Source: a virus (Duplodnaviria > Heunggongvirae > Uroviricota > Caudoviricetes). From it: DNA of 18,093 bases. The notes beneath the pieces were generated by a model. That model was not told the DNA's origin. It searched no databases and saw only the letters and a list, made by a program, of their open reading frames with translations. Within the stretch, counting starts at the first letter, position 1. Every line of letters starts with the position of its first letter. The stretch spans positions 1-18,093 of IMG/VR virus record IMGVR_UViG_2734482772_000007; one strand, 5' to 3'. This document shows, in pieces, positions 1 through 18,093 of this stretch. Both the position numbers and the translations under genes were made by a program.

Positions 1-19
1 TCACGGTAATACGCATGGG

Positions 20-307
20 TTAAAGAGAAGCGAGTTTTAATGGTGGCTTATAACATGCCCGCGCCAGCAGGTTAGCTCTTTCCACGGCATTACGCATTTC
101 CCGTTCTGCGTCAATCATTCTGTTTACGGCTGACAGCACTTCATCATGATTCGTTACTGATTCCGGGCTTTGGGCCTGTTTCGCCAGGTAACTGGATAAA
201 CTGCACATTTCAGCATGTCGGCGACGGGCTGCATCCCGGGCCTTGTCTGAAAATGCGGTATATTCACCGAGTACTGCATAGTCGATATCGGTGTCAGAAC
301 GCATCAT
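20..307 (-). CDS. hypothetical phage protein (95 aa)
   Basis: ORF with AAGGAG Shine-Dalgarno about 8 nt upstream of the ATG at 307; lies downstream of the Mor/C-like gene on the same strand. No recognisable motif. Confidence 0.5.
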   Translation of the reverse strand: MMRSDTDIDYAVLGEYTAFSDKARDAARRRHAEMCSLSSYLAKQAQSPESVTNHDEVLSAVNRMIDAEREMRNAVERANLLARACYKPPLKLASL

Positions 308-334
308 TTCGTGTCTCCTTTTTTCTGAGGCCCA

Positions 335-802
335 TTAATCAAAAAGCCCCACCTGGGTGGGGCTTTTCAGCGAAGTCTGTTTTTGTCGTCGGTGTATCAG
401 TTGCCATGCGTACCGGTCTGAAATGCCGTAACGGGGACAGAGCAGTGCCAGCGCCTGCCGGTGTGAGCATCCGCCTTTTACATGCTGCTGTAAATCAGCC
501 ATAAAACGGGTGTTACGCAGGGCACGTAACGCATGATCGCAACGGGGAATGTAAAACGGTGCGCCGCCAAGAAAACGGATCAGTTTGTTGATTTCGTCTT
601 CGGTCAGCACGTCATGTAACAGGGCATGGACACCGCCGGTGCGTTCGGCGTGTACGCCGGTTTTACCGCTTAACGTCACGCCACCAAAAGAACGAATCAA
701 CCGGGTCAGGGCGGGGAAGCCAATCACGCTAATCAGTTGCTGCACGGAATCGGGCAGCAGTGCCTGCGCATCGCGAAGATCTGTTTCACTGAAGGTCTGC
801 AT
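335..802 (-). CDS. Mor/C-family transcriptional activator (Mu middle/late operon regulator-like), 155 aa
   Basis: C-terminal region (GGAPFYIPR ... CPRYGISDRYAWQLIHRR) matches the conserved Mor/C helix-turn-helix region as I recall it; GGAG SD 9 nt upstream of the ATG. Cannot decide between Mor-like and C-like. Confidence 0.7.
   Translation of the reverse strand: MQTFSETDLRDAQALLPDSVQQLISVIGFPALTRLIRSFGGVTLSGKTGVHAERTGGVHALLHDVLTEDEINKLIRFLGGAPFYIPRCDHALRALRNTRFMADLQQHVKGGCSHRQALALLCPRYGISDRYAWQLIHRRQKQTSLKSPTQVGLFD
341..362 (-). terminator. putative intrinsic terminator hairpin overlapping the 3' end of the Mor/C-like gene
   Basis: GCCCCACC/GGTGGGGC 8-bp stem (345-362) followed on the - strand by TTTTT (complement of 341-345). 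Confidence 0.4.
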
Positions 803-831
803 GATGGCGTCTCCGGTAGTAACTTACTGTT

Positions 832-859
832 ATTATAGCCATACATGATCGCCTGTACA
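832..859 (-). promoter_or_regulatory. candidate sigma70 promoter for the Mor/C-like gene
   Basis: On the - strand: TGTACA (854-859), 16-nt spacer, TATAAT (complement of 832-837), about 30 nt upstream of the ATG at 802. By-eye match only. Confidence 0.3.
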
Positions 860-864
860 GACCA

Positions 865-894
865 TAAAAAACCTCCGCGTTTGCGAAGGTTTTT
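865..894 (-). terminator. putative bidirectional rho-independent terminator
   Basis: AACCTCCGC / GCGAAGGTT imperfect inverted repeat (869-891) flanked by an A-run (865-870) and a T-run (890-894); sits just after the stop of the 902-1240 gene. Confidence 0.45.
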
Positions 895-901
895 GTTCAT
901 A

Positions 902-1240
902 TTATTTTTTATTCTCGTTTATCAACACCAGGTATCCTCTGACATACTCCCATACTTTCTGGTTATCTGTTGGATGCACTTTTCGACAATCTATGGCTTC
1001 ATTTCCATAATCGCCAATGTCAGCTTGGGCTTGTGTTAAGAGAATAACCTTCCTGAGAGCGCATCCTCTGATGGTATCCTTTGAAATATCATCCCAGCCA
1101 TTCATGTATGAATAAGCCAGATTACGTTGTGCCTGATAATCGCCCTGTAATGTTTTTTTGACCAAATCTTCCTCTGAATCAGAAGCATGGGATATCCCTG
1201 TAAAACATAAAGTCAGAATAAGTAATAACAGTTTTTTCAT
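902..1240 (-). CDS. secreted protein of unknown function (112 aa), predicted cleavable signal peptide
   Basis: N-terminus MKKLLLLILTLCFTGISHA then acidic SDSEED; ATGA start/stop overlap with the upstream GemA-like gene; noticeably AT-rich compared with neighbours. Confidence 0.6.
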   Translation of the reverse strand: MKKLLLLILTLCFTGISHASDSEEDLVKKTLQGDYQAQRNLAYSYMNGWDDISKDTIRGCALRKVILLTQAQADIGDYGNEAIDCRKVHPTDNQKVWEYVRGYLVLINENKK

Positions 1241-1632
1241 TTACGTCTCCTTGAATCTTTAACCAGCGCCACCATCACTCCAAAAAGCTGTTCATCCGTC
1301 AGCCATTCGATCACATGTTGCTTATACATGTGAGATGCCAGTCCTTCTGCATACGCCCAGGAACGACCGGCATCAGCCAGCAACGCTTCAATTTTGGATA
1401 ATACTGATTTTCTGCTCATTGCAACACGAGGGCGGCGACCTTTACCAGCGGGTGCCTTGCGCGGGAATCCCTGTTCGTGCATGTATTCCCGGATGATGCG
1501 CAGTTCATCGAGATTGCAGCGTGTGGTGCTGGTTTTACCGGTCAGGCGGGCCAGCGTCTGGCGATAAAGGGCATCATCCCACCCCAGATACGCCTGACCA
1601 GCTTTAATGGCCCCGATCATCTTTTTCAGCAT
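1237..1632 (-). CDS. GemA-like (DUF1018-type) Mu early protein, 131 aa from the ATG at 1632
   Basis: LGWDD...YRQTL...LTGKTS...LDELRIIREYMHEQGF pattern resembles the GemA/gp16 family as I recall it; GAGGA SD 9 nt upstream of the ATG at 1632. The longer ORF to 1731 has a junk-like N-terminus. Confidence 0.55.
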   Translation of the reverse strand: MLKKMIGAIKAGQAYLGWDDALYRQTLARLTGKTSTTRCNLDELRIIREYMHEQGFPRKAPAGKGRRPRVAMSRKSVLSKIEALLADAGRSWAYAEGLASHMYKQHVIEWLTDEQLFGVMVALVKDSRRRK

Positions 1633-1882
1633 GTTTGTTATCCTCAAAACGCACGGTAAAACGTGAAACGCCAATCCCTGACAAGAACGCAGCGGCACGG
1701 TCAAGAGACAACCACGTCTTGTAATCGCCACGGCGTTCCTGTAGAAAATAGGACACCCCGGCGCGGCGATTCACAGCGAAGAGATGATACACACCACCGA
1801 ACCGCTGCACGACGAACTCATCCACGCCACCGCTTTCAGCCTGTTGCCGAAAGGCTGCCATTCCGATTTGTTCAATCTTCAT
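1604..1882 (-). CDS. hypothetical phage early protein; start uncertain (ATG 1882 or 1861; track used TTG 1891)
   Basis: ORF on the operon strand immediately upstream of the GemA-like gene, overlapping it by about 29 nt; no strong SD found. Confidence 0.35.
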   Translation of the reverse strand: MKIEQIGMAAFRQQAESGGVDEFVVQRFGGVYHLFAVNRRAGVSYFLQERRGDYKTWLSLDRAAAFLSGIGVSRFTVRFEDNKHAEKDDRGH

Positions 1883-1886
1883 AATG

Positions 1887-1929
1887 ACCAAAACACTACT
1901 TTTGGCAGACCAAAAAACATGTTTTGGCC
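1887..1929. promoter_or_regulatory. pair of CCAAAA...TTTTGG palindromes in a noncoding gap
   Basis: CCAAAA-cactac-TTTTGG (1888-1905) and the near-perfect palindrome CCAAAAAACATGTTTTGG (1910-1927) in the 145-bp gap between the 2037-2447 and 1604-1882 genes. Confidence 0.3.
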
Positions 1930-2036
1930 TGCATTTGATTACTGTTTAAACAACTCGCGAAATCAGGAACGTCGAGTTTCGGTGATGGCTTTCATCGTGT
2001 TGTTGCTCCGTGATTCAGAAAATTTCATGCCGGGCC

Positions 2037-2447
2037 TCAGTATGTGAAATAGACAGTTGCCACGCCGTTATAGTGATCAAACGACACGGCGTTTACCTCA
2101 TAACTGGCCGGTAGCTTCGAGCCAAGAACGTATCCGGGCCACGTTTTCCATGGAATTTCTCTGCTCTCACTGTCGCCATATACCGTACATCCCAGTGAGC
2201 CTACAGCTTCATAAGAACGCTTACCGCACGTTATGAACCCCAGATGTTGCTTACTGCCCTTAACAGAAATCGGGAGAGCACTGGCTGATGCGTTAGCAGC
2301 GTCCCGCTCCTGTTGGCTTGCGATATTCGCAGAGTTTGCAGCAGCTACAGCAGCCGTGGTCGCAGCGGCAGATGCCACAATAACTGCTGAAGCCTGCGTA
2401 TGTTGGGTAATGGTTAGCAATGCCGCCACAAAAATCATTTTCTTCAC
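2037..2447 (-). CDS. secreted/periplasmic protein of unknown function (136 aa), signal peptide, GTG start
   Basis: AGGAGG, 6-nt spacer, GTG at 2447; N-terminus KKMIFVAALLTITQHTQA-SA; Ala/Thr-rich linker then a C-terminal domain ending TVYFTY. Confidence 0.6.
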   Translation of the reverse strand: MKKMIFVAALLTITQHTQASAVIVASAAATTAAVAAANSANIASQQERDAANASASALPISVKGSKQHLGFITCGKRSYEAVGSLGCTVYGDSESREIPWKTWPGYVLGSKLPASYEVNAVSFDHYNGVATVYFTY

Positions 2448-2811
2448 CTGGCACCTCCTTTACATACCGTGATTTTTCCAGCGGTTTTGGGCTGCGCTTC
2501 TGTTTCGCCAGACACCGTAAAAACGAATAGAGGACCACTCCCTAAAACCAAGATATCTATAGCGAACAACAAGCCGATTTGAGATACGGATAAGTTGCCC
2601 CGGCTTTGCTATCAGCAGTCTTGCCTTACGGTTTTTCATCATTTTGCTCTCCTGCGTTTCTTTGCTTCGCGTCGTGCAGCTGCAATACCGGTATGGCGGC
2701 GCTTTTGTGCCGGGATGATGTTGTCAGCCATCAGGACATGTGGCTTTGCAATTAGCGCAGAAGCCCAAAAACGAGTCGAGTACGGTAACAAGCCGATACA
2801 TGCCACACGCA

Positions 2812-6832: not shown

Positions 6833-7072
6833 TCATTGCCATACGACGGTGCAGCCGTCGATACAGGACGTTTTAACCACGCGGCGCAGGCCGCTGAATG
6901 TCTGGATGATTTCCGTTACCGGCCATACAGGACCACCCACGGGCGGGCAGGCATAAACCACAGGTAAACGGTGATGTTGTCCCGTTACACGACCACCAGT
7001 GGTGTGGATGGCCACACGGGCACGGGAACGGACGGCGTTAATGGTCTGCTTGTCCATCGTCTTGTTCTCCAT
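6833..7072 (-). CDS. hypothetical small early protein (79 aa) in the position Mu uses for kil
   Basis: Start overlaps the B-like gene's stop by 1 nt (TAATG-type coupling); no sequence motif recognised. Confidence 0.45.
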   Translation of the reverse strand: MENKTMDKQTINAVRSRARVAIHTTGGRVTGQHHRLPVVYACPPVGGPVWPVTEIIQTFSGLRRVVKTSCIDGCTVVWQ

Positions 7073-7965
7073 CAGTGAATTAACATTTCTGCGAATTTAT
7101 CAATGGCCTGCACACTGACCGGCGCATCGCTGATATCACAAATCCGGTACACACCACGCGCCAGCTTGAACAGACGGCGGGCATTACCCAGCGAACGTGT
7201 ATAAAGCGCCTCGCTGATTTCCGGCTCTGCTGCTTCCGGCATCAACCCGGTAGCTATCTGGTTAAAATCTTCCTGCGACAACGTATCGCCCAGGTTAAGC
7301 GCCAGCGCCACGCGGCTGTATAACTGGGCGAACTCACCACGACGCCCCTTGAGGTTAATCAGAAGGCGAGGCATACCCGCCAGAACAACCCCGATACCCG
7401 CTTTGTCATGCAGACGGCGCAGAACCTCCAGTGCGCGATAGGGGAGCAGTTCAGCCTCGTCCACCATCAGCAGACGACCGGAATCACGCAGTTCGCGCAC
7501 ACAGGCATCTATCAGTTCGTGAATGTTGCCGCGAACCTTTACCCCCAGCTGGCGGCACAACTCCTCAAGCAGTGTTCTGGCTGTATAGCCCGGGTCAGCC
7601 TCAATCAGGACCGCATCCCGGTTTCTGGCGGCGTATTCACGCAGAATCATTGTTTTGCCAAGACCTGCTGCGCCATACAGCACACAGATTTCACATTCCA
7701 GGTGAGCGTAGGCCAGCACCTCCAGTCCTTTGGCAGTCATACTGGTGGTCACAAACTTTGCTTTAATACGGCGGCTGTTTTCCTTTTCCCGCTCACGGGT
7801 CACAAAGGCAGAAATGCGTTCTTCAATATCAGCCATATCGCCCTGATATTTACCCTGTAAATACTGGCTGATAACGGCGCTGCTACGCCCAATGGCACGG
7901 GCGACGTGGGTCTGCGTATAGCCGCGACGGGCCATTACGTCATTTAATTGCGTAATTAAACTCAT
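7072..7965 (-). CDS. MuB-like transposition ATPase / target DNA activator (297 aa)
   Basis: N-terminal HTH region (YTQTHVARAIGRSSAVISQYLQGKY), Walker A GAAGLGKT, Walker B-like LLMVDEAE; immediately downstream of the transposase, as in Mu. Confidence 0.85.
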   Translation of the reverse strand: MSLITQLNDVMARRGYTQTHVARAIGRSSAVISQYLQGKYQGDMADIEERISAFVTREREKENSRRIKAKFVTTSMTAKGLEVLAYAHLECEICVLYGAAGLGKTMILREYAARNRDAVLIEADPGYTARTLLEELCRQLGVKVRGNIHELIDACVRELRDSGRLLMVDEAELLPYRALEVLRRLHDKAGIGVVLAGMPRLLINLKGRRGEFAQLYSRVALALNLGDTLSQEDFNQIATGLMPEAAEPEISEALYTRSLGNARRLFKLARGVYRICDISDAPVSVQAIDKFAEMLIH

Positions 7966-7983: not shown

Positions 7984-10026
7984 TTAACGGTTGTTTGTGC
8001 CGTTTTTCTTTAAATTGCGCTCGCGCTCAGATGCGAATAAATAAAGTTCTTCTTTTTCCTTTTTCTCCGGGCGTTCCAGTCCATATCCCAGATTAAAGTC
8101 AGGCTTCTGCGTAATAGCCGGGGTAAGCTCGCGTTTCGCCTCTTCGATTTTCTGCGTGGCCCGTGCAATGCGGCCCCTGACGCGTTTCTCCAGTTTTTGT
8201 TCGATAACTGGTTTAGCGAAGGCATCAACCTTGTTACCGTTCCAGATGGCATCGCAGATATAAGAGCCATCAGCCCGCCGGACAATGACGCTGTTTGCAT
8301 CATGAATATCGTAACTGACCCTGACTTCATTCCCGTGCTCTGCGGCCAGCTCATATGAGTAATAAATATTGTTGAATAACTGAATTTCCCCGCGAAATGT
8401 TTTGCGCGTCACTTCCGGTCTGAACATTTCATGCAGCTCTTCCGGCGACAGGAAATCAATTTCAACATTCTGCTCTTTTATCAGTTTCCGGCGATACGCT
8501 GCCGGGCTGTAATATTCGCCATCCTCTTTGCGGGGAAGGCTGCTGTGTGGCCGGTTGTTATAGCGTCTGACTTCCAGTTCTATAGCTGCCATCAGTTGCT
8601 CAAAGGTGGGGACTTCATCCCTCGCCTTAACCTGCCGTTTTGTCAGTTCTTTCCCTTTGTGGGTGGCCTTAATGGCTGACTGCATAATCCGTTGCTGCAT
8701 CATTACGGTTTCCTTGTCTGCTCCCTTTGAGCAGTACGTCTGGAAACTCAGGGCCACATCCCGGGGAATTTCCTTGTTAAGCCTTTCAATCACCCCGCGC
8801 CCCTGTGGGTTACCTGGTATCCCCGTGTGATGTTCCACACCCAGCCGGGGCAGAATCCCGGTAATATCGGCATCAAGCACCCGGTTTTTTTCACCGCCCC
8901 CGTTATCGGAGTAATAAATCAGCGGTATCCCGTGCTGCGCCATGCCGTAACGTAACGCATCAGCAACGGCTATCACGTTCTCCGACAGGGACAGTGACCA
9001 GCCCACAACAAAGCGCTGCCCCGCATCCATAACCAGCGTCACTTCTGGCCGGAAAATATTGCCGGTCAGTGGGTTAAACGCGGTCATTTTCATACAGTGA
9101 CCATCCCCGACCCATACCGCATTAACCGGTAATGTGCTCCAGTCGCGCCGCACAAAGGGATTGAGCGAACGCCAGGCTGAACCGGTGGAGCGGAAACGCT
9201 CTTTAACAATCACCGGGACGCTGCTTAACACCCGTCTTACTGCGTGAACTGAAGGCAGTGCCGCCAGCATTCCCGCATCATTCGCGTGTTTTTCATGCCA
9301 CCAGGCTGAAAACTCACGATACGCATATTCAACAGTCGGGCGCTTCCATGAGCGATAGAACATAAAGAAATCGCTCAACCACCAGACCTGCTCCCACGGT
9401 GTTCCCTTATGATGACCGGGAGCCAGTAACGCCAGTAACTGATTGGCATCACCGCGCGCCATCACCCAGCTGGAGTACCAGCTATCCAGGCTGCCGGTGC
9501 TGACACCGGTTCGCTTTCCCTGACGTGCATTTGCAGTATTCGCTGCTTCGATAATGCGGTCAGGTAACGCCCCCATGCGCACACCATCAACGATGTGCTT
9601 TAAAGCGGCCTTCCTGGTCATTCCGGCATACTCGCGCAGCTTATGCACTTCAGTAGCCAGCAATATCCGCGCATCAGCGATGGCCTTTTGCTTGTCAGTC
9701 AGTGCCTGAACTTCACGTAATGCCAGTTCCGGGCATTTGACCATCACCTCCAGTTCATCGCGAACGGCGACGTTTTTAACTGCCTTCGCCTCAACTACGA
9801 CGGGCAGTTGCGCATCTTCCAGGACCTGATGGGTCAGGCGCTTACGTAAAACTTTCTGCGCTTCAGCGGGCAGGCAGTCGATGTGATACTCGAATGCTTT
9901 GGTGCCTTCACGCTTGCGCTTCCATTCCGGGTGCGTCTCTGTGATCCGATTGAGCGTCCAGCGCACCCCCTGAACTGTACCGGGCAAACCAGGAAGACCG
10001 GCCAGCTCATTGGCTGAATAAAACAT
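7984..10026 (-). CDS. MuA-like DDE transposase (680 aa)
   Basis: N-terminus (LAGLPGLPGT ... GTKAFEYHIDCLPAEAQ) resembles the MuA end/enhancer-binding domain; central region looks like an rve/DDE core (VWVGDGHCMK ... YYSDNGGGE); size and position after ner fit. Confidence 0.9.
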   Translation of the reverse strand: MFYSANELAGLPGLPGTVQGVRWTLNRITETHPEWKRKREGTKAFEYHIDCLPAEAQKVLRKRLTHQVLEDAQLPVVVEAKAVKNVAVRDELEVMVKCPELALREVQALTDKQKAIADARILLATEVHKLREYAGMTRKAALKHIVDGVRMGALPDRIIEAANTANARQGKRTGVSTGSLDSWYSSWVMARGDANQLLALLAPGHHKGTPWEQVWWLSDFFMFYRSWKRPTVEYAYREFSAWWHEKHANDAGMLAALPSVHAVRRVLSSVPVIVKERFRSTGSAWRSLNPFVRRDWSTLPVNAVWVGDGHCMKMTAFNPLTGNIFRPEVTLVMDAGQRFVVGWSLSLSENVIAVADALRYGMAQHGIPLIYYSDNGGGEKNRVLDADITGILPRLGVEHHTGIPGNPQGRGVIERLNKEIPRDVALSFQTYCSKGADKETVMMQQRIMQSAIKATHKGKELTKRQVKARDEVPTFEQLMAAIELEVRRYNNRPHSSLPRKEDGEYYSPAAYRRKLIKEQNVEIDFLSPEELHEMFRPEVTRKTFRGEIQLFNNIYYSYELAAEHGNEVRVSYDIHDANSVIVRRADGSYICDAIWNGNKVDAFAKPVIEQKLEKRVRGRIARATQKIEEAKRELTPAITQKPDFNLGYGLERPEKKEKEELYLFASERERNLKKNGTNNR

Positions 10027-10262
10027 TACGCCGCCTTACTGGCATACCGGCTTGGCCAGATCTCCGCAGGTTCCACACCAATAGCATCGGCTATGATGCG
10101 TTCATATTTAGGGCATGAGCGATACAGTGCATTTTTTAAAGAGTCTTTTTTTAGACCAGCGCGTTCAGAAAGTTCACGCAATGTAAAACCTTTGGTGTGC
10201 ACAGCGGCAACGATGTACTCGCGGTGCCAGTCTTTGTTCATTACTTCATTTCTAACCATCAT
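10026..10262 (-). CDS. ner: Ner-like DNA-binding protein (78 aa from ATG at 10262)
   Basis: MNKDWHREYIVAAVHTKGFTLRELSERAGL...NALYRSCPKYERIIADAIGVEPAEIWPSRY closely resembles the Mu Ner / E. coli Nlp family; 1-nt stop/start overlap with the transposase. The longer ORF to 10412 is rejected. Confidence 0.85.
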   Translation of the reverse strand: MMVRNEVMNKDWHREYIVAAVHTKGFTLRELSERAGLKKDSLKNALYRSCPKYERIIADAIGVEPAEIWPSRYASKAA

Positions 10263-10278
10263 TAGGTTACCCTTAAAA

Positions 10279-10321
10279 GTTATCCGTGCGGATAACACCG
10301 CCGTGTTATCCCTTCGGATAC
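10279..10321. promoter_or_regulatory. operator-like palindromes in the repressor-ner divergent control region
   Basis: GTTATCCG-TG-CGGATAAC (10279-10296, perfect 8-bp arms) and imperfect GTTATCC-CTTC-GGATAC (10305-10321); a further ATCCG at about 10330. Confidence 0.5.
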
Positions 10322-10444
10322 AAGTATTGATCCGTATGTAGCCCATGTAAAGCAAAAATAGCTCTTTCTTTGTATTTTCTTTTTGATTTTGGTCTTTATA
10401 TGGTTTTTGCAATTAAAATCAATCAGTTATAGAGGAAAGAAAAA

Positions 10445-11092
10445 ATGACTAGAAATGATGATGCTTTTTCTTTTGTCGACCAGGGAAAAGAAAGTTTCAG
10501 AGAGCGTTTAGTAAAGCTGATAGGTAACCGTAGTGTCAGAACTGCTGCGAGTGATTGGGGAATCCCCCCTTCAACCTTAAACAACTACATTCATAAAGGA
10601 ACAGAGCCTTCTTTTAAAATAGCTTGTCTTATCTCAGATAAAGAACAAGTGAGCTTAAATTGGCTCGCTTATGGTGAGGAACCCACCGCCAAAGAAGGTT
10701 CTCTATCAAATCAAACAGCGCAGCCTTCTCCCGATATTACAAACGAGCTAGTTAACGAGTTATTGAAAAGAGCGTCCACAGAAGATAAGGAACAACTGAT
10801 AAGTGCAATATGCGATATGGGCATTAAAGGAATCTTGGAACGCCTACAGCAACCCACCAGGCAAACTAAGCAAGCCGATAGCGAACTTGAGGAGCAAAGG
10901 AAGGCCATTCAAAGCCTGAACATCAGGCAATCGCTTAAAGACGCTGTTTGCATGGCATTAGCTGGCGATGAGGAAAATGACAAAGAGATTTTGCGCCGCG
11001 CCAAAGCCATTTTCTGTGCTGGAACACCAGGTGATCGCGTTCCCGTCACACCGGAGCAAGAAACTAAGCCTGTAAACAAGAAATCAGCATAA
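10445..11092 (+). CDS. prophage repressor, CI-type HTH (215 aa), in the position of Mu c
   Basis: Divergent from ner; HTH region VRTAASDWGIPPSTLNNYIHKGTEPS followed by VSLNWLAYGE, typical of phage CI-like repressors; GAGGAAAG SD; no S24 peptidase motifs seen. Confidence 0.7.
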   Translation: MTRNDDAFSFVDQGKESFRERLVKLIGNRSVRTAASDWGIPPSTLNNYIHKGTEPSFKIACLISDKEQVSLNWLAYGEEPTAKEGSLSNQTAQPSPDITNELVNELLKRASTEDKEQLISAICDMGIKGILERLQQPTRQTKQADSELEEQRKAIQSLNIRQSLKDAVCMALAGDEENDKEILRRAKAIFCAGTPGDRVPVTPEQETKPVNKKSA

Positions 11093-11251: not shown

Positions 11252-11406
11252 AAGCGCCCAGAAAAAAGCGCAAAAAAAAGCGTTTTTGGTCATTTCTCAC
11301 AAATCCGCCCAGAATCACACTAAATCACCATACCCCGCGCCACACAAGGCTTGCAGGTTCTACCAGGCTGCACGAACTCCGCCCAGAATTGATCACTACC
11401 CCACAC
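11252..11406. repeat. terminal direct repeats, candidate transposase-binding sites of the prophage end
   Basis: GCGCCCAGAA (11254-11263), TCCGCCCAGAATCAC (11304-11318) and TCCGCCCAGAATTGATCAC (11378-11396); the sequence ends ...CACACA at 11406, consistent with a 5'-TG terminus read on the - strand. Confidence 0.45.
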
Positions 11407-14400
11407 ATGGGCGGAAAACCGGCAGCGCGGCAGGGTGACATGACCCGCAAGGGACTGGATATTGTGCAGGGTTCAGCAGGGGTGCTGATAGGTGCGCCAA
11501 CCGGTGTGGCCTGCTCGGTGTGTCCCACAAAAAAGGACAGTCCGAACTATGGCAGCCCGGTGAACCCGCTACTCGGTGCGAAGGTTCTGCCTGTTGAAAC
11601 CGACCTGGCACTGCCCGGCCCGCTGCCGTTTATTCTTTTCCGCGCCTACAGCAGCTACCGGACCAGGACGCCCGCGCCAGTGGGCGTGTTTGGTCCCGGC
11701 TGGAAAGCGCCCTTCGATATCCGCTTACAGATACGCGATGAAGGCCTGATACTCAACGACAGCGGTGGCAGGAGCATTCACTTTGAGCCGTTGTTTCCCG
11801 GCGAGATAAGCTACAGCCGCAGCGAGTCGTTCTGGCTGGCAAGGGGCGGAGTGCTGAAACAACACAAAGGCCATCCGCTTGCGCGGCTCTGGCGGGCGTT
11901 GCCGGAAGCGGTCCGTCTGAGTCCACACACCTATATGATGGCTGTCAGCACAACCGGGCAGTGGCTGATACTCGGCTGGCCGGAGCGGGTGCCGGGGGCG
12001 GACGAGGTGCTGCCGCCTCCGCCGCCCGCATACCGGGTGCTGACGGGGGTGGTGGACGGCTTCGGGCGGACGCTGGCCTTTCATCGGGCAGCTAAGGGTG
12101 ACGTGGCGGGCGCGGTGACGGGGGTGACGGACGGCGCGGGCCGCCGTTTTCACCTGGCGCTGACCACGCAGGCGCAGCGGGCGGAAGCCTTCCGTAAACA
12201 GCGCGCCACGTCTTTATCTTCCCCGGCCAGTCCCCGTTCTGTTTCCTCTTCTCAGGTTTTCCCCGACACGCTGCCCGCCGGTACAGAGTACGGTGTCGAT
12301 AACGGTATCCGGCTGGAGGCGGTGTGGCTGACACACGACCCGGCATACCCGGATGAACAGCCGACTGCGCCGCTGGCGCGCTACACGTACACGGCCGGTG
12401 GTGAACTGCGGGCGGTGTATGACCGCAGCGGAACGCAGGTGCGCGGGTTTACTTATGATGCGGAGCACGCCGGGCGGATGGTGGCGCACCATTATGCAGG
12501 GAGACCGGAGAGCCGCTACCGGTATGATGATACCGGGCGGGTGACGGAGCAGGTCAACCCGGAGGGGCTGGACTATCGCTTTGAGTACGGGCAGGACCGT
12601 GTGACCATCACGGACAGCCTGAACCGGCGGGAGGTGCTGTACACGGAGGGCGAAGGCGGCCTGAAGCGTGTGGTGAAGAAGGAGCATGCGGACGGCAGCA
12701 TCACCCGCAGCGAGTATGATGAGGCGGGGAGGCTGAAGGCGCAGACGGATGCGGCGGGGCGGCGGACGGAGTACCGGCTGCATATGGCGTCGGGCGCGGT
12801 GACAGCGGTGACGGGGCCGGACGGCAGGACGGTGCGGTATGGCTATAACAGCCAGCGGCAGGTGACGTCAGTGACGTACCCGGACGGGCTTCGCAGCAGC
12901 CGGGAGTATGATGAGAAGGGAAGGCTGGCGGCGGAGACCTCACGCAGCGGTGAGACGACGAGTTACAGCTATGATGACCCGGCGAGTGAGCTGCCGACAG
13001 GGATACAGGACGCGACGGGCAGTACAAAACAGATGGCATGGAGCCGTTACGGTCAACTGCTGGCCTTTACGGACTGCTCGGGGTACACGACGCGGTATGA
13101 GTACGACCGGTACGGTCAACAAATCGCCGTTCACCGGGAAGAAGGCATCAGCACTTACAGCAGTTATAACCCGCGTGGGCAAATGGTCAGTCAGAAGGAT
13201 GCGCAGGGGCGTGAAACCCGTTATGAGTACAGCGCCGCAGGAGACCTGACAGCAACGGTATCACCGGACGGTAAACGCAGCACCACCGAATATGATAAAC
13301 GTGGGCGTCCGGTGAGTGTGACGGAAGGTGGACTGACGCGCAGCATGGGGTATGACGCCGCCGGGCGCATCACCGTGCTGACTAACGAGAACGGCAGCCA
13401 GTCCACGTTCCGGTATGACCCGGTGGACAGGCTGACGGAGCAGCGCGGCTTTGACGGCCGGACGCAACGTTACCAGTATGACCTGACCGGAAAACTCACG
13501 CAGAGTGAAGACGAGGGGCTTATCACCCTCTGGCACTACGATGCGTCGGACCGCATCACGCACCGGACGGTGAACGGCGACCCGGCAGAGCAGTGGCAGT
13601 ATGATGAGCACGGGTGGTTAACCACCCTCAGCCATACCAGTGAAGGCCACCGCGTGTCGGTCCACTACGGGTACGACGATAAGGGCCGCCTGACGGGCGA
13701 ACGGCAGACGGTGGAGAACCCGGAGACGGGGGAACTGCTCTGGCAGCATGAGACGAAACACGCCTACAACGAACAGGGGCTGGCAAACCGCTTTCAGGCA
13801 GACAGCCTGCCGCCGGTGGAGTGGCTGACCTACGGCAGCGGTTACCTGGCGGGCATGAAGCTGGGCGGGACGCCGCTGGTCGAGTATACGCGGGACAGGC
13901 TGCACCGTGAGACGGTGCGCAGCTTCGGCAGCAGGGCAGGCAGTAATGCCGCATATGAACTGACCAGCACATACACCCCCGCAGGCCAGTTACAGAGCCA
14001 GCACCTGAACAGCCTGGTGTATGACCGTGACTACGGGTGGAATGACAACGGCGACCTGGTGCGCATCAGCGGTCCGCGACAGACGCGGGAATACGGCTAC
14101 AGTGCCACGGGCAGGCTGGAGAGCGTGCGCACCCTCGCACCGGACCTGGACATCCGCATCCCGTATGCCACCGACCCGGCGGGAAACCGCCTGCCGGACC
14201 CGGAGCTACACCCGGACAGCACGCTCACGGCGTGGCCGGATAACCGCATCGCAGAGGATGCGCACTATGTTTACCACTATGATGAATACGGCAGACTGAC
14301 GGAGAAGACGGACCGCATCCCGGCGGGTGTGATACGGACGGACGACGAGCGGACCCACCACTACCACTACGACAGCCAGCACCGCCTGGTGTTCCACACG

Positions 14401-15654
14401 CGGATACAGCATGGCGAGCCACTGGTCGAGAGCCGCTACCTCTACGACCCGCTGGGACGGCGAATGGCGAAACGGGTATGGCGGCGGGAGCGTGACCTGA
14501 CGGGGTGGATGTCGCTGTCGCGTAAACCGGAGGAGACATGGTACGGCTGGGACGGCGACAGGCTGACGACGGTACAGACCGACACCACGCGTATCCAGAC
14601 GGTATACCAGCCGGGGAGCTTCGCGCCGCTCATCCGCATCGAAACAGACAACGGTGAACGGGAGAAAGCGCAGTGCCGCAGCCTGGCGGAGAAGTTACAG
14701 CAGGAAGGGAGCGAAGACGGTCACGGTGTGGTGTTCCCGGCTGAACTGGTGGGGCTGCTGGACAGGCTGGAGGGGGAAATCCGGGCAAACTGCGTGAGCA
14801 GTGAAAGCCGCCAGTGGCTTGCGCAGTGCGGGCTGACGGTGGAGCGGCTGGCGGCACAGATAGAGCCGGTTTATTTGCCTGAGCGAAAAATACATCTTTA
14901 TCACTGTGACCACCGGGGCCTGCCGCTGGCGCTTATCAGTGAAGACGGCAATACGGCGTGGAGCGCGGAATATGATGAATGGGGCAACCAGCTTAATGAG
15001 GAGAACCCGCATCACCTGCACCAGCCGTACCGGCTGCCGGGGCAGCAGTATGATAAGGAGTCGGGGCTGTACTATAACCGTCACCGGTACTACGATCCGT
15101 TGCAGGGGCGGTATATCACCCCGGACCCGATTGGGTTGAGAGGTGGATGGAATATGTATCAGTATCCGTTGAATCCCATACAAGTGATAGACCCAATGGG
15201 GTTAGATGCGATTGAGAATATGACATCAGGTGGACTAATTTATGCCGTATCTGGTGTACCTGGATTGATTGCTGCAAACAGCATTACTAACAGTGCTTAC
15301 CAGTTCGGTTATGATATGGATGCTATTGTTGGCGGAGCTCATAATGGGGCCGCCGATGCAATGAGACATTGTTACTTGATGTGTCGAATGACTAAGACAT
15401 TTGGATCAACAATAGCTGACGTGATAGGTAAAAATCATGAGGCGGCAGGGGATAGACAAGGTCAGCCAGCTAAAGAAAGAATCATGGATCTTAAAAATAA
15501 CACTGTCGGTATTGCTTGTGGCGATTTTTCTGCCAAATGTAGCGATGCATGTATTGAAAAATATAACACTGGGCAACTCTTCGGGTTAGATGGTATAAAA
15601 GCAGATAATCCAATAAAAGCAAAGCAAGGGAGTTCAGATGCTTCAAATTATTAG
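11407..15654 (+). CDS. Rhs-family polymorphic toxin with N-terminal PAAR-like region (1415 aa from ATG at 11407)
   Basis: N-terminus [13 protein letters not shown]...[12 protein letters not shown]; many YD/RHS repeats ([22 protein letters not shown], etc.); DPIGL (15124-15138) and DPMGL (15190-15204) preceding a variable C-terminus. The track's TTG at 11389 is rejected in favour of the ATG. Confidence 0.9.
15205..15651 (+). other. Rhs variable C-terminal toxin domain (about 149 aa), family unassigned
   Basis: Begins right after DPMGL; AT-rich compared with the Rhs core; contains [23 protein letters not shown] (15361-15399), KNHEAAGD and [12 protein letters not shown]; five Cys in total. Confidence 0.6.
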
Positions 15655-16120
15655 AGGCAAACTTGTCATTTTTTTAATTACCCTTTGTTTATTTGTTGTT
15701 TACCTTGGGTTTGATAACAATTCAAATTCTGACATCGTATTTTATGGACATAAAACACCAAAGAGCGTTGAGATATATCTTTCTGAAAAAAATATTATTT
15801 ATAAAATAATTAATGACCAAAAAATTAGTAGAGGGAATGGTCATTTTATAAGTATAATGGTTAATAATTACAGGACGCACTGTGGAGTGGTTGATATAAA
15901 TCTTAATTTTTTCAATGATATTCTTTATAGCGTGCGATTAAAAAACATTAGTAAACTGGAGAATATGGAGTTCTGCGCTAAAAAACAACGGGTGTATTTT
16001 AGTGATAAAAACAAGAAGGCTAGTTATAAAATAATTAATTATGGAGACTATTACGATGTTGATTATTATGATAACAATTTGAAAAATGAAGTTTTTGACT
16101 GGATTGGTAAATGGTCATAA
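15638..16120 (+). CDS. putative Rhs immunity protein (160 aa), N-terminal membrane anchor
   Basis: ATG at 15638 overlaps the rhs 3' end by 17 nt, with AAGGGAG SD; N-terminus [20 protein letters not shown] is hydrophobic; very AT-rich, N/K/Y/D-rich. Confidence 0.7.
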
Positions 16121-16300
16121 TGAACAACACCAGAAAGAGAAAAATATAAAATACATACAGAAAGACATGAGAGCAAGGGACGGGGCAGGGCAAGATCATG
16201 AAAATTGTGATGTAAATCACGATTTTCATCTTGGCTTTAACGCCTACAGGTGATCAAAATTTAACCTTTGGAATAACTAAAAAGATAAAAAAGGACCCAG

Positions 16301-17423
16301 GTGAGTATTCAAAGTTTGCTTGATTATATTTCAGTGATCCCTGATATACGACAACAAGGAAAGGTTAAACATAAATTATCTGCTATTTTGTTTCTCACCG
16401 TATGTGCAGTAATTGCAGGTGCCGATGAGTGGCAGGAAATTGAAGATTTTGGACATGAAAGACTTGAATGGCTAAAGAAATATGGTGATTTTGATAATGG
16501 CATTCCGGTCGATGACACCATTGCACGCGTTGTGAGTAACATTGACAGTTTGGCCTTTGAAAAGATGTTTATTGAATGGATGCAGGAGTGCCATGAAATC
16601 ACTGATGGTGAAATTATAGCAATAGATGGAAAGACCATAAGAGGCTCCTTTGATAAGGGAAAAAGAAAAGGAGCAATCCATATGGTGAGTGCATTCTCGA
16701 ACGAAAATGGTGTTGTACTGGGGCAGGTGAAAACGGAAGCCAAAAGTAATGAGATTACAGCCATTCCAGAGTTGCTTAACCTACTGTATTTAAAGAAAAA
16801 TTTGATAACCATTGATGCTATGGGCTGTCAGAAAGATATCGCTTCGAAGATCAAAGATAAAAAAGCAGATTATCTTCTGGCAGTAAAAGGCAATCAGGGG
16901 AAATTACATCATGCATTCGAGGAAAAATTTCCTGTAAATGTGTTTTCTAATTATAAAGGCGATTCGTTTAGTACGCAGGAGATAAGTCATGGAAGAAAAG
17001 AAACACGTTTGCATATTGTCAGTAACGTAACGCCTGAACTTTTGTGATTTTGAATTCGAATGGAAGGGATTAAAAAAGCTTTGTGTAGCATTGTCATTCA
17101 GGCAGAAGAAAGAAGATAAATCAGCAGAAGGTGTAAGCATCCGATATTATATTTCATCAAAGGATATGGATGCTAAAGAATTTGCACATGCTATCAGAGC
17201 GCACTGGCTGATCGAGCACAGTCTTCATTGGGTGTTAGATGTAAAAATGAATGAAGATGCCAGCCGGATAAGAAGAGGAAACGCAGCCTAAATAATATCT
17301 GGAATAAAGAAGATGGCACTGAATTTATTAAGGGATTGCAAAGACATTAAGGGTGAAGAGGAAAAGAAAGAAGGCTGCGTTAAACACAGGGAAAGATCAT
17401 CAGAAGTTCACTTTTTGTACTAA
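16301..17423 (+). pseudogene. ISAs1-family (H-repeat) transposase, diverged copy, disrupted
   Basis: 16301-17047 encodes an N-terminal part colinear with the second copy ([41 protein letters not shown]). A frameshift at about 17045 moves into the frame encoding [18 protein letters not shown]...RYYISS...[14 protein letters not shown]...RRGNAA, an in-frame TAA sits at 17289-17291, and the tail continues to a stop at 17421-17423. Confidence 0.7.
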
Positions 17424-17529
17424 ATAATTCGCATTTTATGTTTAAAAATTGAGATATTCCTCATTACCTGAAGCTGTTTTTTATTGATTATACATGATCA
17501 AATACTCCTTACATAAATAAGGTGAACAA

Positions 17530-18093
17530 ATGGAACTTAAAAAATTGATGGAACATATTTCTATTATTCCCGATTACAGATAAGCCTGGAAAGTAGAGCA
17601 TAAATTGTCAGGCATCCTACTATTGACTATTTTTGCCGTTATTTCTGGTGCAGAAAGTTGGGAAGATATAGAGGATTTCGGGGAAACACATCTCGATTTC
17701 TTGAAGCAATATGGTGATTTTGAAAATGGTATTCCTGTTCACGATACTATTGCCAGAGTTGTATCCTGTATCAGTCCTGCAAAATTTCATGAGTGCTTTA
17801 TTAACTGGATGCGTGACTGCCATTCTTCAGATGATAAAGACGTCATCGCAATTGATGGAAAAACGCTCCGGCACTCTTATGACAAGAGTCGCCGCAGGGG
17901 AGCGATTCATGTCATTAGTGCGTTCTCAACAATGCACAGTCTGGTCATCGGACAGATCAGGACGGATGAGAAATCTAATGAGATTACAGCTATCCCAGAA
18001 CTTCTTAACATGCTGGATATTAAAGGAAAAATCATCACAACTGATGCGATGGGTTGCCAGAAAGATATTGCAGAGAAGATACAAAAACAGGGA
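17530..18093 (+). pseudogene. ISAs1-family (H-repeat) transposase, second copy, premature stop, 3' end outside window
   Basis: MELKKLMEHISIIPDYR then TAA at 17581-17583 where homologues have a sense codon, then AWKVEHKLS...[32 protein letters not shown]...[26 protein letters not shown]... in the same frame to the window end; AAGGTG SD upstream. Confidence 0.75.

What the first reader, a model, noticed from the sequence alone, without database searches (positions are those of the whole stretch)
902..1240. AT-rich secreted-protein gene inserted between GemA-like and Mor/C-like genes
In Mu, gemA and mor are adjacent. Here a 112-aa protein with a clear signal peptide and unusually AT-rich coding sequence sits between them and is followed by its own terminator hairpin (865-894). 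That is the signature of an acquired moron, possibly a lysogenic-conversion or surface-exclusion factor acting in the periplasm.
Basis: partly seen in the sequence, partly recalled or inferred. Interest (0 to 1): 0.5.

Follow-up and report, generated by a model that had tools for sequence, protein, structure and literature searches.

The report
Secreted-protein cassette in Mu-like prophage
A small gene for an exported helical-repeat protein of unknown function sits in a swappable slot between two regulatory genes of a Mu-like prophage, which makes it an ordinary phage accessory gene rather than a new kind of system.

Summary
Positions 902-1240 (- strand) encode a 112-aa protein with a Sec-type signal peptide. 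Its GC is 0.38 against 0.51 in the flanks. It lies between gemA and mor and is followed by a hairpin with a U-tract.

The gemA-mor interval is a variable slot. Near-identical prophage backbones carry this gene, one of two unrelated signal-peptide genes, or nothing.

It is not a classical moron. It has no promoter of its own. Its ATG overlaps the gemA stop (ATGA), with the Shine-Dalgarno sequence inside gemA. The terminator is also present in empty-slot relatives, so it belongs to the backbone.

It is not a recent foreign pickup either. Homologues (PHROG 5882) sit at the gemA/mor/lysis boundary of Mu-like phages in Enterobacteriaceae, Pasteurellaceae and other proteobacteria from several classes. 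They have diverged about as much as GemA and Mor, and they are repeatedly AT-richer than their flanks.

My best reading is a periplasmic protein-binding accessory factor, co-expressed here with the early operon. Its target and role are unknown, and exclusion or envelope modification is only a guess. It is a new member of a known kind and of moderate interest.

The parts
902..1240 (-). CDS of the 112-aa exported Sel1-like-repeat protein ('X', PHROG 5882)
   Evidence: ORF list. PHROG 5882 E 1.9e-57. Homologues aligned. dN/dS 0.23.
1184..1240 (-). Codons 1-19: Sec signal peptide MKKLLLLILTLCFTGISHA, with predicted SPase I cleavage before S20
   Evidence: Sequence features read directly. The pattern is conserved in all homologues. 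pLDDT is below 50 for residues 1-19. No dedicated predictor was run.
905..1183 (-). Mature domain of about 93 aa: five helices forming two Sel1-like repeats plus a capping helix. Invariant residues are C60 and C85 (a likely periplasmic disulfide) and Y35, R39 and D77; N40 and N80 are nearly invariant
1237..1240 (-). ATGA overlap between the gemA stop codon (TGA) and the start codon of X, a translational-coupling junction
   Evidence: Read from the sequence. The two alternative cassettes use the same junction type.
1247..1251 (-). Shine-Dalgarno AGGAG, 6 nt upstream of the ATG and inside the last codons of gemA
   Evidence: Read from the sequence.
1237..1632 (-). gemA (gp16 family), the upstream gene to which X is coupled
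   Evidence: Pfam GemA E 1.5e-18. RefSeq annotates it as 'gp16 family protein'.
865..894 (-). Intrinsic-terminator-like hairpin plus U6. This is the backbone terminator at the end of the early operon, not specific to the cassette
   Evidence: Fold -18.2 kcal/mol, z -4.3. A hairpin and T-run are also present at this position in empty-slot relatives and in allele-2 relatives.
832..859 (-). Sigma-70-like promoter TGTACA-16-TATAAT in front of mor, conserved in all slot states
   Evidence: Promoter scan, 10 of 12 matches. Invariant in the alignments.
335..802 (-). mor (Mor/C-family late or middle transcription activator), the downstream boundary of the slot
   Evidence: Pfam Mor E 1.6e-06, phrog_836 E 3.5e-42.

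Best explanation
X is an accessory gene cassette of Mu-like transposable phages and is not part of the phage core. It encodes a protein of about 10.5 kDa that is exported by the Sec pathway and released into the periplasm. There it folds into a two-repeat Sel1-like (SLR) helical module, probably locked by a C60-C85 disulfide. It presents a conserved polar groove (Y35, R39, N40, D77, N80). Like other SLR/TPR modules, it most likely acts by binding another envelope or periplasmic protein or peptide rather than by catalysis. In this prophage it is the last cistron of the early operon. It is translationally coupled to gemA (ATGA overlap, Shine-Dalgarno inside gemA) and lies upstream of the backbone terminator that precedes the mor promoter. 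It should therefore be made when the early promoter fires, after infection or induction, rather than from a promoter of its own. Shown here: the gene is real, it carries export-signal features, it has the SLR fold, the slot is variable, the coupling anatomy is as described, and the synteny is wide. Inferred: periplasmic location, the disulfide, the timing of expression, and the binding function. Guessed: that the benefit is protection or modification of the envelope during phage development, such as exclusion of other phages or masking of an envelope component.
Against: No experiment or transcript data were available. Expression in the lysogen from a weak or non-sigma-70 promoter inside gemA cannot be excluded. 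In some distant transposable prophages (L115, L118, L098) X is the last gene of the operon that begins with the HTH repressor-like gene. That suggests lysogenic expression there. In Pasteurellaceae phages a terminator hairpin lies between gemA and X, so the coupling seen here is not universal. The Pfam Sel1 score is below threshold (15.5 against 30.7 bits), and Foldseek E-values are above 0.1. No binding partner is identified.
Confidence: 0.55

Rival explanations
1. Classical lysogenic-conversion moron. X is an autonomously transcribed promoter-gene-terminator unit, recently acquired from a low-GC source. [quoted passage not shown]
For: GC is 0.38 against 0.51, and the gene is present or absent among near-identical backbones. 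All alternative cassettes in the slot also encode signal-peptide proteins. In L115, L118 and L098, X sits in the repressor-side operon, a typical place for lysogen-expressed genes.
Against: No promoter-like site lies upstream, there is no intergenic space, and the ATGA overlap with gemA argues against autonomy. The terminator is present without the gene. X diverges in step with GemA and Mor across phage lineages: 36-53% identity against 29-59% and 30-45%. It is AT-richer than its flanks in many hosts, so low GC is a standing property of phage-borne copies and not a mark of recent arrival. The same tail fibre (99.9% nt) occurs with X and with the allele-2 cassette, which does not fit masking of the phage's own receptor.
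Confidence: 0.25
2. Lysis-associated periplasmic regulator. X binds and modulates a peptidoglycan hydrolase or holin, acting as an antiholin or a hydrolase inhibitor in the manner of Spackle or EnhC. It would set lysis timing or protect against lysis from without.
For: X always lies within about 0-1.5 kb upstream of the lysis cassette in Mu-like phages, and directly before the endolysin in L094 and L114. From my own knowledge, some periplasmic SLR proteins bind murein enzymes, such as Legionella EnhC with Slt, and T4 Spackle is a small exported helical early protein that inhibits a tail lysozyme.
Against: The neighbouring endolysins belong to four unrelated families: GH108, Amidase_2, GH19 and SLT. 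The identical holin protein WP_001372993.1 is present with X, with allele 2 and with the empty slot. In L109, X lies in the tail module between the tape-measure and DNA-circularisation genes. No fold match to Spackle appeared.
Confidence: 0.1
3. Orphan immunity protein. X is a periplasmic SLR protein that neutralises a periplasm-acting antibacterial toxin, such as a T6SS effector. It would resemble the SLR immunity protein PA5087 and protect the lysogen in bacterial competition.
For: The fold class and compartment match. PA5087 appears among the Foldseek hits (rank 16).
Against: That hit is weak: E 4.4, 42 aligned columns. Pfam scans of the neighbouring ORFs at the X loci examined did not turn up a toxin/effector family. 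PADLOC and NCBIfam gave nothing. The Rhs toxin in the window lies outside the prophage and has its own downstream ORF.
Confidence: 0.07
4. Not a functional gene: a chance ORF or a decaying remnant in an AT-rich spacer.
For: The composition is unusual and no family library assigns a function.
Against: Full-length homologues exist in hundreds of clusters. The profile search found 409 representatives at E<=1e-3. Cysteines and motifs are invariant, dN/dS is 0.23, and the AF2 model is confident.
Confidence: 0.01

Closest known systems
Phage morons and accessory 'regions of genomic plasticity' (Hendrix/Juhala concept; RGPs of Pseudomonas Mu-like phages, PMC4378225)
   Same: A single extra gene lies between two genes that are adjacent in close relatives. 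It is AT-richer than its flanks, and alternative unrelated genes occupy the same slot.
   Different: There is no promoter or terminator of its own. The gene is translationally coupled to the upstream core gene and lies inside the early operon. The same family has kept the same neighbourhood across distant phage lineages.
Sel1-like repeat (SLR) proteins: AlgK, E. coli c5321/EsiB, Legionella LpnE/EnhC, Helicobacter Hcp proteins, Vibrio SflA periplasmic domain
   Different: It has only two repeats (about 93 aa mature) and scores below the Pfam Sel1 threshold. It has its own signature (GDYQAQRNLAY ... C ... GDYGNE ... C). It is phage-borne and its partner is unknown.
PHROG 5882 (phage protein family of unknown function)
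   Same: Full-length match at E 1.9e-57. Distant homologues from other prophages match the same PHROG.
   Different: Nothing differs; this is the family it belongs to. The family has no assigned function.
Small exported phage proteins made early that act on the envelope: T4 Spackle (Sp), T5 Llp, Cor of phi80/N15 (from my own knowledge)
   Same: It is small, carries a signal peptide and is phage-encoded. Its position in an early transcription unit would fit a 'lytic conversion' or exclusion role.
   Different: No sequence or fold similarity was detected. It is not a lipoprotein, unlike Llp and Cor. No exclusion phenotype has been tested.

Membership tests
Moron (autonomous promoter-gene-terminator insert) | Inserted between two genes that are adjacent in related phages | tested here: met
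   Relatives with GemA 95-97% identical have a 119-120-nt gemA-mor gap. More distant relatives have gaps of 13-105 nt.
Moron (autonomous promoter-gene-terminator insert) | Own promoter upstream of the gene | tested here: not met
   No sigma-70-like site on the - strand upstream of 1240. The ATG overlaps the gemA stop, so there is no intergenic DNA. The consensus scan is crude, so a weak internal promoter is not excluded.
Moron (autonomous promoter-gene-terminator insert) | Own terminator downstream | tested here: not met
   A hairpin and T-run are also present at the same place in empty-slot relatives. Two hairpin versions exist and are not tied to the cassette type.
Moron (autonomous promoter-gene-terminator insert) | Nucleotide composition different from neighbours | tested here: met
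   GC 0.381 against 0.507 in the flanks; GC3 0.354 against 0.52-0.56.
Moron (autonomous promoter-gene-terminator insert) | Expressed from the repressed prophage | not testable with these tools
   No transcript data. The anatomy argues for expression with the early operon.
Sel1-like repeat proteins (Pfam PF08238) | Pfam Sel1 HMM at or above the gathering score | tested here: not met
   15.5 bits against a cut-off of 30.7, E 0.026, residues 36-59.
Sel1-like repeat proteins (Pfam PF08238) | Alpha/alpha repeat fold superposable on solved SLR proteins | tested here: met
PHROG 5882 | Full-length match to the family profile | tested here: met
   E 1.9e-57, residues 1-112 on profile positions 1-114 of 114.
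Sec/SPase I secreted proteins | Positively charged n-region, hydrophobic h-region, small residues at -3 and -1, and no lipobox | tested here: met
   MKK / LLLLILTLCFTGI / S-H-A|S by inspection. The feature is conserved in all 10 aligned homologues. The residue before the Cys is L, so there is no lipobox. No SignalP-type predictor was available.
Known phage exclusion or envelope proteins (T4 Sp, T5 Llp, Cor) | Sequence or fold homology to a characterised member | tested here: not met
SLR-type T6SS immunity proteins (PA5087-like) | Encoded next to a cognate effector gene | tested here: not met
   Neighbours are phage genes. Pfam scans of the neighbouring ORFs did not turn up an effector family.

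The most novel reading that the evidence does not exclude
X may be the founding phage member of an unrecognised, widely distributed family of periplasmic mini-SLR effectors. The profile search found 409 cluster representatives, with homologues in at least four proteobacterial classes, Acidobacteria and other phyla. The family has a conserved Y/R/N...D/N groove, which would clamp a conserved envelope ligand or protein. On this reading, the gemA-mor-lysis boundary of transposable phages is a dedicated slot for interchangeable secreted cargo. That cargo would reprogramme the periplasm during phage development, for example by blocking DNA entry of competing phages or neutralising a murein enzyme.
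Probability: 0.2. Interest if true: 0.6.

Novelty: new member of a known kind. Interest (0 to 1): 0.35.

Why it matters
The slot between gemA and mor, or between mor and the lysis genes, holds interchangeable genes for exported proteins. This is a compact natural experiment in what a transposable phage finds useful to put into the host periplasm. The protein family here is rare in E. coli (13 of 5426 complete genomes). It is nevertheless kept at the same genomic boundary in Mu-like phages of several proteobacterial classes, so it is probably doing something for the phage. If its target were found, it would add a periplasmic binder to the short list of phage proteins known to act outside the cytoplasm. 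It might also explain an exclusion or envelope phenotype of these lysogens. As it stands, it is a well-delimited accessory gene of unknown function, not a new kind of system.

Tried and rejected
1. Near-identity DNA search of window 1-2500 against deposited phages found no match. The prophage is represented only in bacterial genomes and IMG/VR.
2. Pfam, NCBIfam and PADLOC gave no significant family for X, for the allele-2 protein or for the 136-aa neighbour.
4. A profile of X against PDB sequences gave only a marginal Sel1-repeat match at E 0.1.
5. I tested whether X and the alternative 158-aa cassette protein are homologous. hhalign aligns only the signal peptides, with probability 28%, so I rejected this.
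6. I tested whether the genes upstream of X in L098, L108, L115 and L118 are cryptic GemA homologues. HMM scores were not significant: best whole-sequence E 0.0073 against four sequences, and no single domain below 0.05. This remains unproven.
7. I tested whether X co-varies with the tail fibre, as a receptor-masking role would predict. The Ec55 tail fibre occurs at 99.9% nt identity in prophages with X and in one with allele 2, so there is no support. The sample is small, and the E. coli searches may be capped at 58 records.
8. I tested whether X is tied to one endolysin type. It is not; four families were seen.
9. Literature searches on Mu-like accessory genes, Sel1 proteins in prophages and periplasmic phage proteins found no paper that describes this family.

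Full report
THE OBSERVATION. The window carries the early arm of a Mu-like prophage on the minus strand. Its genes include:
- a CI-type repressor at 10445-11092 (+);
- a ner-like HTH gene at 10026-10412 (-);
- transposase A at 7984-10026 (-);
- the B ATPase at 7072-7965 (-);
- DUF3164, DUF2786 and Ead/Ea22 genes, then gemA at 1237-1632 and mor at 335-802.

Between gemA and mor lies the reported ORF, 902-1240 (-), 112 aa. Its N-terminus, MKKLLLLILTLCFTGISHA|SDSEE, has the three regions of a Sec/SPase I signal peptide and no lipobox. Its GC is 0.381 (GC3 0.354), against 0.52-0.55 for both neighbours. The sequence at 867-894 folds into a 12-bp hairpin followed by U6: -18.2 kcal/mol, z = -4.3, and none of 200 shuffles folds as well.

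IT IS A REAL GENE. The protein matches PHROG 5882 end to end (E 1.9e-57). A search of 5.8 billion proteins found nine clusters at E<=0.001: three enterobacterial ones at 84-98% identity, the rest at 39-44%. All have a signal peptide, two invariant cysteines (C60, C85) and the motifs LQGDYQAQRNLAYS and GDYGNE. Against the Citrobacter copy, dN/dS is 0.23. That is purifying selection, though looser than for gemA (0.06) and mor (0.08). A profile search of 1.84 billion cluster representatives found 409 proteins at E<=1e-3 and 122 at E<=1e-10. In many of these the domain is the C-terminal part of longer proteins of 150-420 aa, which begin with a signal peptide, a lipoprotein signal or a membrane anchor. 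The domain is thus consistently extracytoplasmic.

Foldseek ranks the same proteins first, but with E above 0.1. Pfam Sel1 is hit below threshold (15.5 against 30.7 bits). A profile of the family aligns to a Sel1 repeat of PDB 6ok3. So the fold assignment, a two-repeat SLR module, is well supported, while formal Pfam membership is not. In a 50-sequence alignment the invariant positions are Y35, R39, A42, C60, D77 and C85. G33, D34, N40, A61, N80 and L88 are nearly invariant. The polar ones lie in the helices at 35-47 and 75-86, the first helix of each Sel1-like repeat. I infer that they line a ligand-binding groove, as in other TPR/SLR proteins. This is inference and was not tested.

THE SLOT. 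I anchored on GemA and collected 44 related phage contigs, plus E. coli genomes. Among backbones whose GemA is at least 95% identical to the window's, the gemA-mor interval exists in four states:
- X (112 aa);
- a 158-159-aa signal-peptide protein, as in EPEC E2348/69 (WP_000976762.1);
- a 167-aa signal-peptide protein (phrog_19473), which shares the leader MMKKWLFCLVGVI with the previous one but not the mature part;
- nothing, a 119-120-nt gap.

All three cassette genes are AT-rich (GC 0.38-0.42). All three start with the same ATGA overlap on the gemA stop codon. hhalign finds no similarity between X and the 158-aa protein beyond the signal peptide. More distant relatives (GemA 59-66% identical) mostly have gemA directly followed by mor, with gaps of 13-105 nt. 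X itself occurs in 13 of 5426 complete E. coli genomes. It also occurs in Citrobacter freundii and on an Escherichia albertii plasmid-borne prophage.

First, the terminator is not the gene's own. Empty-slot prophages have a hairpin and T-run (GCCCCTGCCTTGCAGGGGC-T6) at the same position, immediately followed by the invariant TGTACA-16-TATAAT promoter-like site and mor. Two hairpin versions circulate, and the window's version is also found behind an allele-2 cassette. The hairpin is therefore the backbone terminator at the end of the early operon, and the cassettes are inserted upstream of it.

Second, there is no room for a promoter and none was detected. The ATG of X overlaps the TGA of gemA, AGGAG lies 6 nt upstream inside gemA, and the consensus scan finds nothing on that strand. 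The simplest reading is that X is the last, translationally coupled cistron of the early transcript. In Mu-type phages that transcript is repressed in the lysogen; this rests on established knowledge of Mu regulation and was not tested here.

Third, X is not a recent foreign arrival. In all 45 loci recovered through X itself, from Enterobacteriaceae and from Pasteurellaceae-type phages including Mannheimia phage vB_MhM_3927AP2, gemA lies -1 to 154 nt upstream and mor lies downstream. A scan of one genome per species found 36 more loci. Seven of them are Mu-like prophages with both gemA and mor. The two Pasteurellaceae loci have the order gemA-X-mor. The other five have the order gemA-mor-X; by record title these are Martelella alba, Chitinimonas, Chromobacterium, Aquitalea and Mariprofundus. 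In L094 and L114 a GH19-type endolysin ORF follows X.

Identity between the window's X and these copies is 36-53%, against 29-59% for GemA and 30-45% for Mor. The three genes have therefore diverged roughly together. Phage-borne copies are AT-richer than their flanks in hosts ranging from 40% to 60% GC, by 0.06 to 0.18. Long chromosomal homologues are not. Low GC is thus a standing feature of the phage-borne gene and not a timestamp of acquisition.

OTHER CONTEXTS. In Pasteurellaceae phages a terminator hairpin lies between gemA and X, only about 17 nt before the start codon, and a second terminator follows X. In Pandoraea, Burkholderia and Deefgea prophages, X is the last gene of an operon that starts with an HTH repressor-like gene, divergent from the transposase genes. 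That position suggests expression in the lysogen. In a Herminiimonas prophage, X lies between the tape-measure and DNA-circularisation genes. Other homologues are chromosomal. The family is therefore mobile cargo with a strong but not exclusive preference for the end of the early region of transposable phages. Its timing of expression may differ between phages.

TESTS OF FUNCTION. A role tied to one lysis enzyme is unlikely for two reasons. The adjacent endolysins belong to GH108, Amidase_2, GH19 and SLT families. The identical holin protein WP_001372993.1 is encoded by prophages with X, with allele 2 and with the empty slot.

A role in masking the phage's own receptor gets no support. The Ec55 tail-fibre gene is 99.9-100% identical in prophages that carry X (Ec55, SCAID WND1, AVS0151) and in one that carries the allele-2 cassette (Ecol_AZ146). 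Other representatives have quite different fibres. This test is weak. The sample is small, and three different E. coli searches each returned exactly 58 records, which may be a hidden cap.

Defence-system and NCBI family libraries gave nothing. No paper in the searchable library describes the family.

VERDICT. X is an exported two-repeat SLR protein encoded by an optional cassette in a variable slot of a Mu-like prophage. Here it is wired into the early operon. It most likely works by binding an envelope or periplasmic partner. Which partner, and whether the benefit is exclusion, envelope modification or something else, cannot be decided with these tools.

I file it as a new member of a known kind: a phage accessory gene and an SLR protein belonging to PHROG 5882. 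It fails two of the defining features of a classical moron, own promoter and own terminator, although it behaves like one in its presence or absence and in its composition. Interest is moderate. The recurring secreted-cargo slot and the wide synteny of a functionless family are worth an experiment, but nothing here contradicts current understanding.

Noticed in passing
window 2037-2447 (-): A second ORF with a clear signal peptide (136 aa, MKKMIFVAALLTITQHTQASA...). It matches phrog_8805 over its full length, with no Pfam or PADLOC hit. It lies in the early region two genes upstream of gemA.
   Followed up: partly
window 11389-17047 (+): Just outside the prophage's repressor end lies an Rhs toxin gene of 1421 aa, with RHS repeats, DUF6531 and a C-terminal DUF6973. 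It is followed by a 160-aa ORF (15638-16120, a candidate immunity gene) and a DDE_Tnp_1 IS transposase (16301-17047). GC is at or below 0.40 over about 15335-17556.
   Followed up: partly
L058 3396-3899 versus L002 3593-4069: Two unrelated cassette proteins in the same gemA-mor slot share the signal peptide MMKKWLFCLVGVI but have different mature domains. This suggests recombination within the leader-coding region.
   Followed up: partly
L133 (Klebsiella phage ST405-OXA48phi1.1) 2162-3122: mor is unannotated in this deposited phage; the ORF at about 2198-2632 overlaps the gemA 3' end. A 159-aa signal-peptide protein sits between mor and the GH19 endolysin. It has marginal similarity to the E2348/69 cassette protein (BLASTP E 6e-4 over 51 aa).
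   Followed up: partly
NZ_CP041431.1 (E. coli STEC316), around 621539 and around 2035394: One genome carries two Mu-like prophages of this backbone, one with X and one with the empty gemA-mor slot.
   Followed up: no
L005 4963-5000; L004 3882-3955: In Pasteurellaceae-type Mu-like phages a terminator hairpin lies between gemA and the X homologue, with only about 17 nt left before the X start codon in L005 (about 47 nt in L004). How X is transcribed there is unclear; read-through or attenuation are possibilities.
   Followed up: partly
L098 5090-5917, L108 5307-5918, L115 5475-6002, L118 5361-5942: In four beta-proteobacterial prophages, X is preceded by a poorly conserved protein of 175-275 aa that follows an HTH repressor-like gene. 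The proteins are weakly related to each other. One has a sub-threshold Pfam GemA hit (E 0.005).
   Followed up: partly
window 983-1011 (+): A sigma-70-like site (TCGACA-17-CATAAT, 10 of 12 matches) lies antisense inside the X coding sequence. The number of such sites in the region is no higher than in shuffles, so it is probably chance.
   Followed up: no
search_dna_similar on E. coli genomes: Three unrelated megablast queries each returned exactly 58 matching records. This may be an undeclared cap, so counts of backbone-carrying genomes should be read as lower bounds.
   Followed up: no
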